DNA from: Escherichia coli
GTDB taxonomy: Bacteria > Pseudomonadota > Gammaproteobacteria > Enterobacterales > Enterobacteriaceae
Direction: 5' to 3' (one strand)
DNA: 64,000 bases
NCBI RefSeq assembly: GCF_001677475.2
Contig: NZ_CP015229.1
Within the stretch, counting starts at the first letter, position 1, and each line of letters starts with the position of its first letter. Shown piece by piece: positions 18,001 to 24,000 of this stretch. A program made the position numbers.

Positions 18001-21000
18001 GGGCGATTGCATGCAGTGCAAGAGTTGCTTGTGCTGCCGCCAACAAGGCATTGTGACCGTCTTCTGGTTTTGCGCCTGCGTGAGCGGCGGTCCCGGTGAA
18101 GTGCGCGTCAAATTTGGTGGTTGCCATAAAATTATCACTGCCGCACACTACTGTGCCCGCAGGTACACCAGTGCCAATGTGTACGGCAGTAAAATAATCA
18201 ACATCATCCACTACTCCTGCATCGACCATCGCCCGCGCGCCACGCGTACCTTCCTCTGCAGGTTGAAAAATCAGTTTGATGACGCCATGTAGTCCGGACT
18301 CGAACTGTTTAAGGGTATGCGCCAGCCCAAGCCCAATGGCGGTATGTCCATCATGACCACAGGCATGCATCATTCCGGCGTTACATGACGCAAAACCGTC
18401 GCGATAGGGGCGATGGCTGACATCTCGTTCTTCACTGAGATCCAGCGCGTCCATATCGACACGGAAAGCCATCACCGGACCGGGGCGACCGGTATCCAGG
18501 GTAGCGACGATGCCAGTGAAACCGCCTTCAAAAGCCGCAATCCATTGTTCTAGCGCACCCTGTTGACGAGCGCGCTCGAATTCGCGTTGTAGAGTGAATT
18601 CATCAGGTAATCCCATCCGGCTACTTTCATTAACTACTTCGCGGCCCAGCGCCAGTGAATAACCGAGCTGGTGCAATTCTTCCGCAACAAGGGTGGCAGT
18701 GCGGAATTCCACCCAGCCAGACTCTGCATAGTGGTGAAAATCACGTCGCCAGTGCGATAATTTTGGGGCAAGCGAATTAATAAATTGATTCAAAGACTCC
18801 ATAACCTTTCCCGTCATCAGTAAAAAGTGTGACCCGGTTCACGTAGCGATAGTTTTTACTTATCACTAACTGATTTTTCACAGTTTTAACCGTTCATAAA
18901 TTACCCTGACACAATCATCTGCATTAAAGTAGATGCCAGTTTCTTTGGTCTGATAAATAACGGTTATCGGTGGCGTCATGGCTTTTCAGGTAAAAATTCA
19001 TCAAATTCGGGCTTTTGTTGAAGTGGCTCGTCAGGGCAGCATTCGCGGAGCGAGCCGAATGTTGAATATGTCGCAACCGGCACTGAGTAAATCTATTCAG
19101 GAGCTGGAAGAAGGGTTGGCGGCACAACTCTTTTTTCGCCGTAGTAAAGGCGTGACGTTAACTGATGCCGGTGAAAGTTTTTATCAGCACGCCAGTCTTA
19201 TTCTTGAAGAGCTGCGCGCAGCGCAAGAGGATATTCGCCAACGACAAGGGCAACTGGCAGGGCAAATTAATATCGGCATGGGGGCCAGTATTTCCCGCAG
19301 TCTGATGCCAGCTGTCATATCTCGTTTTCATCAGCAGCATCCGCAGGTAAAAGTACGCATTATGGAAGGGCAACTGGTATCGATGATTAATGAATTGCGC
19401 CAGGGGGAACTGGATTTCACCATCAATACCTATTATCAGGGACCCTACGACCACGAATTTACTTTTGAGAAATTACTGGAAAAGCAATTCGCGATCTTTT
19501 GCCGCCCGGGACATCCCGCCATTGGTGCCCGTTCGCTCAAACAGTTACTGGACTACAGCTGGACAATGCCGACGCCACACGGCAGCTACTACAAACACTT
19601 GAGTGAATTGCTTGACGATCAGGCGCAAACGCCACAGGTCGGCGTAGTCTGCGAGACGTTCTCAGCCTGTATCAGTCTGGTGGCAAAAAGCGATTTTCTC
19701 AGCATACTACCTGAAGAAATGGGCTGCGATCCCTTGCACGGACAGGGGCTGGTGATGTTGCCGGTTAGCGAAATTTTACCGAAAGCGACCTATTATTTGA
19801 TTCAGCGGCGTGATAGTCGCCAGACACCACTGACCGCGTCATTAATCACGCAATTTCGGCGAGAATGCGGCTATCTGCAAAGTTAAAACTGCATAAAAAA
19901 ATAGAGTCTGTCGACATCCGCCAGACTCTACAGTACACACAGCAGTGCATCCTCGTCTTAAATCCGGCCTGGGGTCCTGGTGACCGGTGACAGTGTTATA
20001 ACGGTTTTACCCATCCGTTGCCAATTTTCTTCAGTGACAGATTTCACGAAAATATAAGTTAAATCATTTGTCTTGTGATTGCATAATCATGCATCGTTAA
20101 TCGACGAGTAAATTTACCGGGCGAGTAGCCCGTTCGACGCTTAAACATATTGCCGAACGATTCAGCTGAGGCATAGCCCAGACGATGGGCAATTTTGGTC
20201 AACGAATATCCATCATCAAGAAGCGTCACTGCAGAAATAACGTGCATTTGCTGAATCCAGTGGCGAAATGTTAATCCCGTCTCTTTAACAAATAAGCGCA
20301 TGAGTGTACGGCTACTGACGTTAATTTTATCCGCCAGATTATCCAGTGTTGGCAGATACCCTTGGTTGTTTAGCAAATTCTCACAAAGCTGCTGTAGCCG
20401 CTCATCATTTGGCCAAGGGAGTTCAAGTGACATTTTCACCCCCATTTTTATTTCCTGAAGTATCAGTGTCTCGAGGGCTGAAAAACGTAACTGTTGTTTA
20501 TCTGTGGTACTTTGCGACGGTGGAAGTTGGTTAATTGCAATTAGTAATTCCCTTAACAGGGGTGAAATACCCGTCATGAAGCAAACTGTTCCCAGAGTTT
20601 CACTTTCCGCTTCTGAAACCAGTACGGTTTTTAAAAGTACGTTGCCTGTCGCAACAAACTTATGCGGCATTTGTGGGGGCAGCCAAAGCGCGCTGCTGGC
20701 ATGGACTAGCCAGACGCTTTCTCCAGCCCATACACGAACGACGCCTTCAGCCGGGTAAAGCAACTGGGCATAGAGATGTTTATGCCAGGGAACTGTACCT
20801 CCATTCAGATGTTCCGAATCCAGTCCGATAATGTGATGCCCTGGTGATGCTTTGGGTTGCAGTGTGATTGTCATTTACAGTAGGTATTTTGTCAGAAATC
20901 ATCAAATAAGCCATGTTAAATTTTAAATATGACGAATGCAAGTTTCCGGATATATACGGTGTAAAGAGTGATGATAATTTCTAAAAAACAGCTTATTGGG

Positions 21001-24000
21001 GTGGTAGCGATCGGTATTATTTTGACTGGCGTTGTCTTTTTTATCTGGTGGGTAAGCAAAGGAAGATTTATACAGACGACGGATGATGCTTACATTGGTG
21101 GTAATATCACCACGGTGGCAAGTAAAGTTTCTGGTTATATTACTGCTATAGAGGTGCGCGATAATCAGAGCGTAAAAAAAGGCGATATTATCCTGCGTCT
21201 CGATGATCGGGATTATCGTGCAAATGTCGCCAGGCTTGAGGCAAAAATAAAAAGTAGCAAAGCCAATCTCGAAAGCATTCAAGCCACTATTGCGATGCAG
21301 CAGTCGATAATTCAAAGTGCCAGTGAAACATGGCAGGCAGTAAAACATGAGAAGCAAAAGCGCCTGCGAGATACTGAACGTTATGAAAAACTCGCACAAT
21401 CAGCGGCAATATCGCAACAAATTATTGATAACGCCAGGTTTGACTACCAGCAGGTCGCAGCAAAGGAGCGCAAAGCCGCGAACGATTTCCTGGTGGAGAA
21501 GCAACGGCTGGCAGTTTTATCTGCTCAGGAAGAAAACGCACGTGCGAGTATCGAAGAAGTTCAGGCCGCTTTGACTCAGGCACTACTGGATCTGGAATAT
21601 ACCCTTGTTCGTGCGCCGATTGATGGCATTGTCGCAAACCGCAGCGCCCATACAGGCAGTTGGGTGGAAGGCGGCACATCGTTAGTTTCACTAGTACCAG
21701 TCAGTGAGTTGTGGGTTGATGCAAATTATAAAGAAAACCAAATAGCGGGAATGAAGCCAGGAATGAAGGCTGAGATCCGTGCTGATATTCTCAAAGGGGA
21801 AGTGTTTCACGGTCACATTGAAAGCCTTTCCCCAGCGACAGGAGCCAGTTTCAGCTTGATTCCGATAGAAAATGCCACTGGCAATTTCACCAAAATTGTG
21901 CAGCGTGTCCCGGTACGGATTGCATTTGACGACTCAAAGGAATTAAAGCAACTCCTTCGCCCGGGACTGTCCGTCACCGTCAGGGTTGATGAGAGATGAT
22001 GTCTATGCGTAAACATATTGCTTTCGCCAGTATGTGTATTGGATTATTTATTGCTCAGCTTGATATTCAAATTGTATCGTCATCCCTAAATGAAATAGGT
22101 GGTGGTCTGTCCGCAGGTAAAGACGAAATGGCCTGGCTTCAGACCAGCTATTTAATTGCTGAGATTATTGTTATTCCACTTTCTGGGTGGCTGTCACGGG
22201 TATTTTCCACTCGTTGGCTTTTTACTCTATCCGCGGGAATATTTACTTTAATGAGTATCGCTTGTGGACTTGCATGGAATATTCAGATCATGATTTTGTT
22301 TCGTGCTTTACAGGGAGCTGCTGGCGCATCCATGATCCCTTTAGTTTTCACGACGGCGTTTATTTATTACCAGGGTAAAGAGTTGGGGTTGGCTGCTGCG
22401 GTAGTCAGTGCGCTGGCCTCACTGTCACCGACGCTAGGGCCAACTCTGGGTGGCTGGATCACTGATAACCTCGACTGGCGATGGCTATTTTATATCAATA
22501 TATTACCGGGTATATATTTAGTTTTGAGTATTCCTTTTCTGGTTAATATTGATAAACCTGATCTCTCTTTACTGAAAGTTGCTGATTATCCGAGTATTAT
22601 CCTGTTGACCATGACACTGGGATGTCTGGAATATACCCTTGAAGAAGGAGCGCGCTGGGGATGGCTGGATGATAATACTATTTTGCTGACATCAGTTATG
22701 GCATTGGTGAGCTTTACTTTATTTGCTGCGCGTACACTTACAATATCCAATCCGATAATGGATCTTCATGCTTTTAAGGATAAAAATTTTACGCTGGGAT
22801 GTTTTTTTTCTTTTTCTGGAGGGGTTGGGATATTCTCTACTGTATATTTAATACCTGTGTTTTTGGGGCAGGTTCGCGGATTAAATGCCGAAGAGATAGG
22901 TTTTGCCGTTTGCACAACAGGTATTTTCCAGTTATTTTCTGTTCCCTTTTACTTCTGGTTAAGTAAAAAAATAAATCTGCGATGGCTGTTGATGGCGGGG
23001 CTGGGCGGATTTGTGTTTTCAATGTATCTTTTTACCCCTATAACCCACGAATGGGGATGGCAGGAGTTACTGTTTCCACAGGCAATTAGAGGGATTTCGC
23101 AGCAGTTTGCGATGGCCCCCATCGTAACATTAACGCTGGGGGGAATTCCAAAAGAACGGCTGAAGTTAGCCTCTGGTGTATTTAATTTAACACGTAATCT
23201 TGGGGGCGCGATTGGTATTGCCCTGTGTGGCTCTATTCTCAATAATCGAACTAATTTTCATTTTTCGAGAATGGGTGAAAAAATGGTTTCTGTTCCCCAT
23301 ACGGTGAATGACTTCATTTCCAGAAGTGCTTTGTTTTTTAATCGCAGTGGAAGTGACCAGACATCGGAAATACTGGCTTCAACCAAATTATTGAGTCAAT
23401 TGATGCTGAGGGAGGCGCAAACTATGGCATTTTCGGATACCTTTCTGCTAATCAGTGGTCTGTTATTTATCGCATTTTTGTTGGTTCCTGCTATGAATAA
23501 ATCATCCTGATCGGAGCCTGTGCTGAATTAAACTCGGGCTAAACTGTTCGATACTGCTAACAGGCTAGTATAAAATGCCCCGCCTGCGCAGATACTCACA
23601 GGTATGAAGTAGAGTATTGTTTCAATCTGTGAAGGGAACGATGCAGTAAGTATGAACAATTAACCCGTCTGAATCACGACGTGTGAAGGTGCATAGGAGG
23701 TTACATGAACCTTGACGACAAATCGCTGTTTCTTGACGCCATGGAAGATGTCCAGCCGCTGAAACGTGCTACAGATGTCCACTGGCATCCAACGCGTAAC
23801 CAACGTGCGCCGCAGCGTATCGACACGCTGCAACTTGATAATTTCCTCACCACCGGATTTCTCGACATCATCCCGCTAAGTCAGCCGCTGGAGTTTCGGC
23901 GGGAAGGGTTGCAACATGGGGTGCTGGATAAGCTGCGCAGTGGTAAATATCCGCAACAGGCGAGCCTGAATCTTTTGCGCCAGCCGGTGGAAGAGTGCCG

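What the first reader, a model, noticed from the sequence alone, without database searches (positions are those of the whole stretch)
20000..23650. AraC regulator plus HlyD/MFS efflux pump inserted between mcaS and smrA
In K-12 as I recall it, mcaS and smrA are separated by only a few hundred bp. Here a ~3.7 kb AT-rich segment carries a divergent AraC-family regulator and a translationally coupled HlyD membrane-fusion protein with an EmrB-like 14-TM MFS transporter, a typical substrate-inducible efflux module. It lies next to the biofilm sRNA McaS and the c-di-GMP cyclase DgcM.
Basis: partly seen in the sequence, partly recalled or inferred. Interest (0 to 1): 0.4.

Follow-up and report, generated by a model that had tools for sequence, protein, structure and literature searches.

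The report
Acquired AraC-regulated EmrAB-like efflux module
This E. coli strain carries a 3.6-kb, horizontally acquired three-gene cassette (a regulator plus a two-part drug-efflux-type pump) upstream of smrA that K-12 lacks; about a quarter of sequenced E. coli have it, so it is a real but ordinary, uncharacterised accessory pump.

Summary
Window 20095-23694 (3600 bp, 44% GC against about 50-51% in the flanks) carries three genes:
- an AraC-family regulator (20059-20874, minus strand);
- a divergent membrane-fusion protein (20971-21999);
- a DHA2 14-TM-type MFS transporter (21996-23510), whose start overlaps the adaptor's stop as ATGA.

The segment lies between McaS (19893-19988) and smrA (23705). 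K-12 has 111 unrelated bp here.

The segment is a true insertion that replaced native DNA.
- K-12's 111 bp is homologous to the smrA upstream region of Citrobacter and Salmonella.
- The left junction falls exactly at the donor's AraC stop codon. The E. coli AraC ORF therefore reads 11 extra codons into native DNA that K-12 also has.
- There are no mobility genes and no flanking repeats.

The same three-gene unit occurs elsewhere in the chromosome of Kluyvera (67-82% aa identity) and of rare Salmonella.

The module is present in 1457 of 5426 complete E. coli genomes, including UPEC 536, always as a single copy at this site.

The pump is a distant paralog of EmrAB and EmrKY (28-33% identity). 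No outer-membrane gene accompanies it, so dependence on TolC is inferred. The substrate is unknown.

Verdict: a new member of a known kind, of low to moderate interest. Side notes: RefSeq's "frameshifted" label on the MFS gene looks like an artefact, and a variant McaS allele is linked to the module.

The parts
20095..23694 (.). Acquired segment (3600 bp) absent from K-12; replaces 111 bp of native smrA-upstream DNA
   Evidence: blastn against K-12 W3110: homology stops at 20094 and resumes at 23695. GC is 44.1% against about 50-51% in the flanks. Nucleotide homology to the Kluyvera and Salmonella modules starts at 20095/20097 and ends at 23495.
20059..20874 (-). AraC/XylS-family regulator, 271 aa: N-terminal cupin/AraC_binding domain plus C-terminal dual HTH
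   Evidence: ORF. Pfam HTH_18 E 7e-22, AraC_binding 5.7e-8, Cupin_2 1e-6. No NCBIfam equivalog cut-off is reached. 77-80% identical to Kluyvera and Salmonella orthologs.
20059..20094 (-). Last 11 codons (MHDYAITRQMI) plus stop of the AraC ORF, encoded by native E. coli DNA that K-12 also has (about 78% identical there)
   Evidence: Protein alignment: orthologs from Kluyvera, Salmonella and Providencia end at residue 258-260, with none continuing into the 11-codon tail. The K-12 homology breakpoint is at 20094/20095.
20875..20970 (.). Divergent intergenic region (96 bp), presumed promoters and operator
   Evidence: The AraC-proximal ~50 nt is much better conserved with the Kluyvera and Salmonella modules than the 71% seen over the coding DNA. 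Weak sigma-70-like match at 20874-20902 (+) (not above the shuffle expectation).
20971..21999 (+). Membrane-fusion (periplasmic adaptor) protein, 342 aa, EmrA/EmrK-like, with an N-terminal membrane anchor
   Evidence: TIGR00998 E 1e-80 (271 bits, below the cut-off of 390.8). Pfam HlyD_D23, HlyD_3, Biotin_lipoyl_2. PDB EmrA 8zar E 1.5e-43. 31% identical to EmrA and 33% to EmrK. Hydrophobic segment at residues 8-26.
21996..23510 (+). DHA2-family (EmrB/QacA-type) MFS efflux permease, 504 aa, intact
   Evidence: TIGR00711 401.8 bits against a cut-off of 230.2, residues 9-496. PDB EmrB 8zal E 9e-56. 28% identical to EmrB and 29% to EmrY. 82% identical and collinear (residues 3-504) with the Kluyvera 505-aa ortholog. 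No stop codon in frame, and the other frames are closed.
23511..23694 (.). Non-coding tail of the acquired segment (184 bp); now forms the whole region upstream of smrA
   Evidence: No similarity to K-12, Citrobacter, Salmonella or the Kluyvera module. No plus-strand terminator-like site. A promoter-like site at 23548-23576 (+).
19893..19988 (-). McaS sRNA (left neighbour). Its core promoter and a CRP-like site are untouched; it is a variant 5'-loop allele linked to the module
   Evidence: Rfam RF00115 113.5 bits. Alignment of module-positive loci against K-12. Folds.
23705..24268 (+). smrA (right neighbour). Its ancestral upstream region has been replaced

Best explanation
A three-gene efflux cassette was acquired horizontally by an Escherichia ancestor. 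It landed immediately upstream of smrA and replaced about 111 bp of the native smrA leader. The donor was an enterobacterial lineage related to Kluyvera.

The cassette encodes:
- an AraC/XylS regulator with a cupin ligand-binding domain;
- divergently from it, a translationally coupled pair: an inner-membrane-anchored periplasmic adaptor (EmrA/EmrK-like) and a 14-TM-type DHA2 MFS proton antiporter (EmrB-like).

Inferred mechanism: the regulator binds a small-molecule inducer and controls the divergent promoter. The adaptor and the MFS assemble, most likely with chromosomal TolC, into an EmrAB-TolC-like tripartite exporter for a hydrophobic or toxic compound that is not yet known.

Shown: gene content, intactness, boundaries, polarity of the event, population frequency, and conservation of the unit in other genera.
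Inferred: inducibility, use of TolC, efflux direction and substrate.
For: Gene identities.

Absence from K-12 and exact breakpoints.

Insertion polarity:
- K-12's 111 bp shares a positionally equivalent block (53-83 bp before the smrA ATG) with C. rodentium and Salmonella. Only 3 of 1000 shuffles reach the score for each. The window's 184-bp tail shares nothing with them.
- Salmonella and Citrobacter have ogt directly next to smrA.
- The AraC orthologs end exactly where K-12 homology resumes, which gives the E. coli protein an 11-residue tail.

Foreign origin: GC is 44% against 50-51% in the flanks.

Conserved unit: the same AraC <-> adaptor-MFS layout sits in unrelated chromosomal contexts in Kluyvera cryocrescens and in rare Salmonella. 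The AraC-proximal intergenic block is also conserved.

Maintained by selection: dN/dS is 0.06-0.24 for the AraC and MFS genes; the adaptor gives 0.18 against E69.

Population: 1457 of 5426 complete genomes, one copy each, at the same locus. No genuine plasmid copies were found.
Against: - No experiment or paper was found for this locus.
- There is no outer-membrane factor in the cassette, so a tripartite architecture is assumed by analogy with EmrAB-TolC (PDB 8zal/8zar).
- The adaptor scores below the curated EmrA/EmrK subfamily cut-off (271 against 390.8 bits).
- The adaptor's within-E. coli dN/dS is noisy (0.6-1.2, from 10-12 substitutions).
- About 10% of carriers have an 1851-bp internal deletion, and some have IS1 insertions or frameshifts, so the pump is dispensable in some lineages.
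- The outgroup similarity that supports polarity is short (about 30 nt plus a second small block).
Confidence: 0.8

Rival explanations
1. The module is ancestral at this site, and K-12-type strains carry a deletion scar rather than the pre-insertion state.
For: K-12 keeps 36 bp that align, at 78% identity, with the 3' end of the AraC ORF. The module is present in the B2-type strain 536 and in the divergent 'E. coli E69' genome at the same site.
Against: The 36 bp lie beyond the end of every non-Escherichia ortholog, so they are native DNA into which the ORF runs, not a remnant. K-12's 111 bp resembles the smrA leader of Citrobacter and Salmonella, which a deletion could not recreate. In E69 the module is more similar to E. 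coli (94.5-97.4%) than the flanking dgcM and zntB genes are (84-88%), which fits import by recombination.
Confidence: 0.08
2. The cassette is a decaying, non-functional relic, with the MFS a pseudogene as RefSeq annotates it.
For: PGAP labels the MFS 'frameshifted' in all six full-length carrier genomes inspected. Real frameshifts exist in ETEC6333 and E69. There is an 1851-bp internal deletion in roughly 140 genomes, and IS1 hits occur.
Against: In the window and in 5 of the 7 carriers whose ORF was translated (the six above plus E69), the ORF is 504 uninterrupted codons. The other two frames are full of stops. The ORF matches TIGR00711 end to end and is collinear, without gaps, with the Kluyvera 505-aa protein. 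dN/dS is about 0.23.
Confidence: 0.1
3. It is not a xenobiotic pump but an exporter for an endogenous metabolite or signal, possibly working without TolC (inner membrane to periplasm only).
For: No outer-membrane gene lies in the cassette in any genus. It is regulated by a cupin-AraC protein, which typically senses metabolites, rather than by the MarR or TetR repressors usual for drug pumps. Only 28-33% identical to EmrAB and EmrKY.
Against: An adaptor with the full EmrA-like architecture is only needed to bridge to an outer-membrane channel (inferred from the EmrAB-TolC structures 8zal/8zar). No biosynthetic genes are linked to the module in E. coli, Kluyvera or Salmonella.
Confidence: 0.25

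Closest known systems
EmrAB-TolC of E. coli (EmrR-EmrA-EmrB; PDB 8zal/8zar)
   Same: A two-gene adaptor + DHA2 MFS operon with adjacent or overlapping genes. The adaptor has an N-terminal anchor. The MFS aligns with EmrB over residues 12-497. There is no outer-membrane gene in the operon.
   Different: Only 28% (EmrB) and 31% (EmrA) identity. Scores are far below the NCBIfam equivalog cut-offs (218.7 against 925; 209.7 against 563). The adaptor is 48 aa shorter. The regulator is a divergent AraC/cupin protein, not the MarR-type EmrR. The module is accessory rather than core.
EmrKY of E. coli (EvgAS-controlled)
   Same: The same MFP + DHA2 architecture with overlapping genes. Identity is 33% (EmrK) and 29% (EmrY).
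   Different: A different regulator (the two-component system EvgAS) and a different locus. EmrKY is a core gene pair in K-12.
Orthologous AraC<->HlyD-MFS cassette of Kluyvera cryocrescens and K. intermedia, and of rare Salmonella enterica
   Same: The same three genes, the same divergent layout and overlap, and a conserved operator-side intergenic block. Identity is 80% (AraC), 68% (adaptor) and 82% (MFS).
   Different: A different chromosomal context. The AraC is 262 aa and lacks the 11-residue E. coli tail. These cassettes are likewise uncharacterised.
Paraburkholderia HlyD-DHA2 pairs
   Same: Adaptor + MFS pair with 41-42% and 52% identity.
   Different: No homologous AraC gene nearby.

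Membership tests
DHA2 (EmrB/QacA) MFS efflux permeases, TIGR00711 | Full-length match to the family model above the curated cut-off | tested here: met
   401.8 bits against a cut-off of 230.2; residues 9-496 match profile positions 3-480 of 485. Pfam MFS_1 E 3.6e-42.
DHA2 (EmrB/QacA) MFS efflux permeases, TIGR00711 | 14 transmembrane segments, against 12 in DHA1 | tested here: inconclusive
   A crude Kyte-Doolittle scan gives about 13 clear hydrophobic peaks, including the C-terminal one at 482-500. Gap-poor collinearity with the 14-TM EmrB over residues 12-497 supports 14. No dedicated topology predictor was run.
DHA2 (EmrB/QacA) MFS efflux permeases, TIGR00711 | Proton-coupled drug or metabolite export | not testable with these tools
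   Needs transport or MIC assays.
EmrA/EmrK periplasmic adaptors (TIGR00998) / HlyD-type MFP | Match to the subfamily model above the curated cut-off | tested here: not met
   271 bits against a cut-off of 390.8, although the match is full length (residues 7-340 to profile positions 2-334 of 334). It is therefore a related but distinct adaptor lineage.
EmrA/EmrK periplasmic adaptors (TIGR00998) / HlyD-type MFP | MFP domain set (lipoyl, barrel-sandwich, beta-barrel) and an N-terminal membrane anchor | tested here: met
   Pfam Biotin_lipoyl_2, HlyD_D23, HlyD_3 and CusB_dom_1. Hydrophobic segment at residues 8-26, score 2.71.
EmrAB-TolC tripartite pump (orthology) | Equivalog-level similarity to EmrA and EmrB | tested here: not met
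   NF000391 218.7 against 925; NF011715 209.7 against 563. Identity is 28% and 31%.
EmrAB-TolC tripartite pump (orthology) | Uses an outer-membrane channel (TolC) | not testable with these tools
   No OMF gene lies in the cassette or next to the orthologs. tolC is outside the window.
AraC/XylS transcription factors | C-terminal double helix-turn-helix | tested here: met
   PF12833 E 7.3e-22, residues 180-258; two PF00165 half-matches.
AraC/XylS transcription factors | N-terminal ligand-binding (cupin/AraC_binding) domain | tested here: met
   PF02311 E 5.7e-8 and PF07883 E 1.1e-6, residues 25-86.
AraC/XylS transcription factors | Controls the divergent operon in response to a ligand | not testable with these tools
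   Only indirect support: the divergent layout is conserved in three genera and an intergenic block is conserved.
Mobile genomic island / transposon | Integrase or transposase, flanking direct or inverted repeats, tRNA attachment site | tested here: not met
   No such ORFs. No repeats at 20095 or 23694. No genuine plasmid copies: the three near-identical hits are a 4.9-Mb record and two large fragments of 252 and 386 kb, probably chromosomal DNA. The only island-like trait is the low GC.

The most novel reading that the evidence does not exclude
The insertion did more than add a pump; it rewired its two neighbours.
- It removed the ancestral smrA leader. smrA now sits 194 bp behind the MFS gene, in the same orientation, with no recognisable terminator between them. 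The DNA endonuclease SmrA could therefore be co-expressed with an inducible efflux operon.
- It placed the AraC gene 70 bp upstream of the mcaS start and in tandem with it.
- It travels with a McaS allele whose 5' loop is rewritten at about 8 of its 12 nt while the hairpin and a GGA are kept. According to PMC10729762, this loop carries the CsrA-binding GGA and overlaps the flhD-pairing site.

Carriers, a group that includes the B2 UPEC strain 536, would then differ from K-12 in McaS target choice (motility against biofilm) and in smrA control.
Probability: 0.15. Interest if true: 0.5.

Novelty: new member of a known kind. Interest (0 to 1): 0.25.

Why it matters
The module adds one more MFP-MFS pump to the efflux repertoire of roughly a quarter of sequenced E. 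coli, including the UPEC strain 536. It is absent from the laboratory strains in which nearly all efflux biology was worked out, and I found no publication on it.

RefSeq systematically flags the transporter gene as a pseudogene, so it has no protein accession. It is therefore likely to be missed by protein-based resistome and pan-genome surveys.

The exact junctions give a clean natural experiment:
- a regulator ORF extended by 11 codons into host DNA;
- a replaced smrA leader;
- a linked McaS allele.

Even so, the gene types, layout and probable mechanism are entirely conventional.

Tried and rejected
- Flanking repeats or IS ends at the junctions: none found.
- Plasmid carriage: the only near-identical 'plasmid' hits are a 4.9-Mb record and two large fragments of 252 and 386 kb, probably chromosomal DNA. 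The other hits are 64-75% identical partial matches in unrelated genera.
- Similarity of K-12's 111 bp to anything inside the module: only a 10-nt chance match.
- A conserved AraC partner in the Paraburkholderia loci: absent.
- Literature: four searches, by gene names, RefSeq accessions and keyword combinations, found nothing on this locus. PMC4819403 was checked and is irrelevant.
- The promoter and terminator scan is not above shuffle expectation for promoters, so I draw no firm promoter calls from it.
- PGAP's 'frameshifted' call: I looked for an alternative reading frame ending at 23451 and found only stop-ridden frames. I could not reconstruct why PGAP makes this call.
- The genome-contig scan uses exact peptide words. 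Its failure to return E. albertii, E. fergusonii or E. marmotae is only weak evidence that they lack the module.
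Full report
**What is there**

The window is an E. coli chromosomal segment with this gene order: abgB, abgA, abgR, McaS, [three extra genes], smrA, dgcM, zntB, FnrS.

The three extra genes are:
- An AraC-type regulator at 20059-20874 (-), 271 aa. Pfam finds HTH_18 (E 7e-22), AraC_binding and Cupin_2.
- A membrane-fusion protein at 20971-21999 (+). The ORF lister starts it at a GTG one codon earlier, at 20968. It matches TIGR00998 (EmrA/EmrK) at E 1e-80, and carries HlyD_D23, HlyD_3 and Biotin_lipoyl_2 domains.
- A DHA2 MFS permease at 21996-23510 (+), 504 aa. It scores 401.8 bits on TIGR00711 against a curated cut-off of 230.2, matched end to end.

The adaptor's stop and the MFS start overlap as ATGA. 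McaS lies at 19893-19988 (-) and smrA starts at 23705. The segment is 44.1% GC, against 51.1% and 49.8% in the flanks.

**Exact boundaries**

Against K-12 W3110, homology runs to 20094 and resumes at 23695, 10 bp before the smrA ATG. K-12 has 111 unrelated bp in between. The event is therefore 3600 bp in this strain against 111 bp in K-12.

**Insertion or deletion?**

Three results point to insertion with replacement.

1. In Salmonella and Citrobacter rodentium, ogt is directly adjacent to smrA, with no abg operon, no mcaS and no module. Everything between ogt and smrA is therefore Escherichia-specific filling.
2. K-12's 111 bp shares a block with both outgroups at the same distance from the smrA ATG (53-83 bp). 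Only 3 of 1000 shuffles reach the score for each outgroup. The 184-bp tail of the module shares nothing with them. The K-12 haplotype thus preserves the ancestral smrA leader, and the module haplotype has lost it.
3. The 36 bp of the AraC ORF that K-12 'retains' (20059-20094, about 78% identical) are not a deletion remnant.
   - AraC orthologs from Kluyvera, Salmonella and Providencia end at residue 258-260. The E. coli protein continues for 11 more residues, MHDYAITRQMI.
   - Nucleotide homology to the Kluyvera and Salmonella modules begins at 20095/20097.
   - The left junction therefore coincides with the donor stop codon, and the ORF now runs into host DNA.

There are no repeats, IS ends, integrase or tRNA at the junctions, so the mechanism of integration is unknown.

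**Origin and conservation of the unit**

The same divergent AraC <-> adaptor-MFS cassette occurs in Kluyvera cryocrescens and in a few Salmonella enterica genomes, in unrelated chromosomal contexts. It also has overlapping adaptor and MFS genes there.
- Identities to the window are 80% and 77% (AraC), 68% and 67% (adaptor), and 82% and 81% (MFS).
- K. intermedia has the adaptor-MFS pair at a contig end.
- The AraC-proximal ~50 nt of the intergenic region is much better conserved than the 71% nucleotide identity of the coding DNA. This suggests a conserved operator or promoter.
- More distant AraC relatives in Acinetobacter (about 40% identity) sit divergently from a 12-TM-size MFS.
- Paraburkholderia has adaptor-MFS pairs (42% and 52% identity) without this regulator.

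**Population**

- The module is in 1457 of 5426 complete E. coli genomes. In 1316 of them at least 80% of it is covered. It is always a single copy at the same locus.
- 313 genomes have it together with an intact abgR, as in this window.
- Most of the rest have the B2-type arrangement seen in UPEC 536: the abg operon is deleted (window 14630-19672) and the order is ogt, abgT', abgR', mcaS, module, smrA.
- K-12, O157:H7 and most other strains lack it.
- About 140 genomes carry an 1851-bp internal deletion (21234-23084) that fuses the adaptor and MFS remnants. IS1 insertions also occur.
- A divergent genome labelled 'E. coli E69' has the module at the same site, with the same abg deletion. Its dgcM and zntB are 84% and 88% identical to the window, but its module is 94.5-97.4% identical. 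This suggests spread by homologous recombination rather than strictly vertical descent.
- Apparent plasmid hits are chromosomes or chromosome fragments.

**Is the pump intact?**

RefSeq/PGAP marks the MFS gene as a 'frameshifted' pseudogene, with a 1455-1456-nt span, in every full-length carrier I opened.

- In the window and in five of those genomes, the reading frame is 504 uninterrupted codons. The other two frames are full of stops.
- The protein is collinear, without gaps, with the Kluyvera 505-aa ortholog and with the family model.
- True frameshifts exist only in ETEC6333 and E69.
- dN/dS against B2-type alleles is 0.06-0.15 (AraC) and 0.23-0.24 (MFS). The adaptor is noisy within E. coli (10-12 substitutions) but gives 0.18 against E69.

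I conclude that the gene is intact here and that the pseudogene label is an annotation artefact.

**How it probably works**

The closest solved and characterised system is EmrAB-TolC. PDB 8zal and 8zar match at E 9e-56 for EmrB and 1.5e-43 for EmrA. Identity is only 28-31% to EmrAB and 29-33% to EmrKY, and the NCBIfam equivalog cut-offs are missed by a wide margin. It is a paralogous lineage, not an ortholog.

By analogy (inference), the anchored adaptor bridges the DHA2 antiporter to TolC, because no outer-membrane gene is linked in any genus. The cupin-AraC regulator would sense an inducer and control the divergent promoter. The substrate is unknown. Nothing in the neighbourhood in E. coli, Kluyvera or Salmonella points to one.

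**Side effects on neighbours (inference only)**

- The mcaS core promoter and a CRP-like site (CGTGA-N6-TCACT) are identical in both haplotypes. The junction lies about 105 bp upstream of the McaS 5' end.
- The AraC gene now ends 70 bp upstream of mcaS, on the same strand.
- smrA has lost its ancestral leader and lies 194 bp behind the MFS gene, with no plus-strand terminator-like site between them.
- All module-positive loci examined share a McaS allele whose 5' hairpin loop differs from K-12 at about 8 of its 12 nt. The 6-bp stem, the 12-nt loop and a loop GGA are kept.
- According to PMC10729762, the 5'-most GGA is a CsrA site and overlaps the flhD-pairing site.

**Verdict**

The feature is a conventional efflux cassette, common in the species and routinely annotated, though apparently unstudied. 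I rate it a new member of a known kind, with interest 0.25.

Noticed in passing
window 19893-19988 (-), especially 19963-19982: The McaS allele differs from K-12 at about 8 of 12 loop nucleotides, plus 2 stem positions, in the 5' hairpin (ACCGGUCACCAGGACCCCAGGCCGGA against ACCGGCGCAGAGGAGACAAUGCCGGA). The same 6-bp stem and 12-nt loop fold is predicted, and a GGA stays in the loop. All module-positive loci examined share this allele (536, 18KM2445, E69). The loop holds the CsrA-binding GGA and overlaps the flhD-pairing site (PMC10729762).
   Followed up: partly
window 21996-23510; L002, L003, L011, L024, L025, L026: RefSeq/PGAP annotates the MFS gene as a 'frameshifted' pseudogene (1455-1456-nt span) in all six full-length carrier genomes opened. 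Yet the ORF is 504 uninterrupted codons in five of them and collinear with the Kluyvera ortholog. This looks like a systematic annotation artefact, and it leaves the protein without a RefSeq accession.
   Followed up: yes
window 14630-19672 (abgT' to abgR'): The abg operon is deleted with the same junction (14629|19673) in a module-carrying E. coli (PapRG-06-5) and in the divergent 'E. coli E69' genome. 536 and HM670 share the left end at 14629, but their alignment resumes only at 19761. This points to a shared old haplotype or to transfer by recombination.
   Followed up: partly
window 21234-23084; locus L012: An 1851-bp internal deletion fuses the first ~88 codons of the adaptor to the 3' end of the MFS gene in O2:H1, O25:H1 and related strains (roughly 140 genomes). 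IS1 insertions in the module occur in others (H42, L013).
   Followed up: partly
L020 (C. rodentium), L021 (Salmonella) versus window ~14000-23700: In Salmonella and Citrobacter, ogt is directly adjacent to smrA. The abg operon, mcaS and the efflux module are all Escherichia-specific fillings of one intergenic gap, which makes ogt-smrA a hotspot of gene-content change.
   Followed up: partly
window 20888-20925 (within the AraC-adaptor intergenic region): A block of about 40-50 nt next to the AraC start is nearly invariant between the E. coli, Kluyvera and Salmonella cassettes, although the coding DNA is only about 71% identical. It is a candidate operator or promoter.
   Followed up: partly
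window 31280-31458, 44781-44951, 26855-26972: Rfam finds RalA (the antitoxin sRNA known from the K-12 Rac prophage; from memory), a sok antitoxin RNA and FnrS downstream of the locus. The first two suggest prophage or toxin-antitoxin content further along the window; I did not examine them.
   Followed up: no
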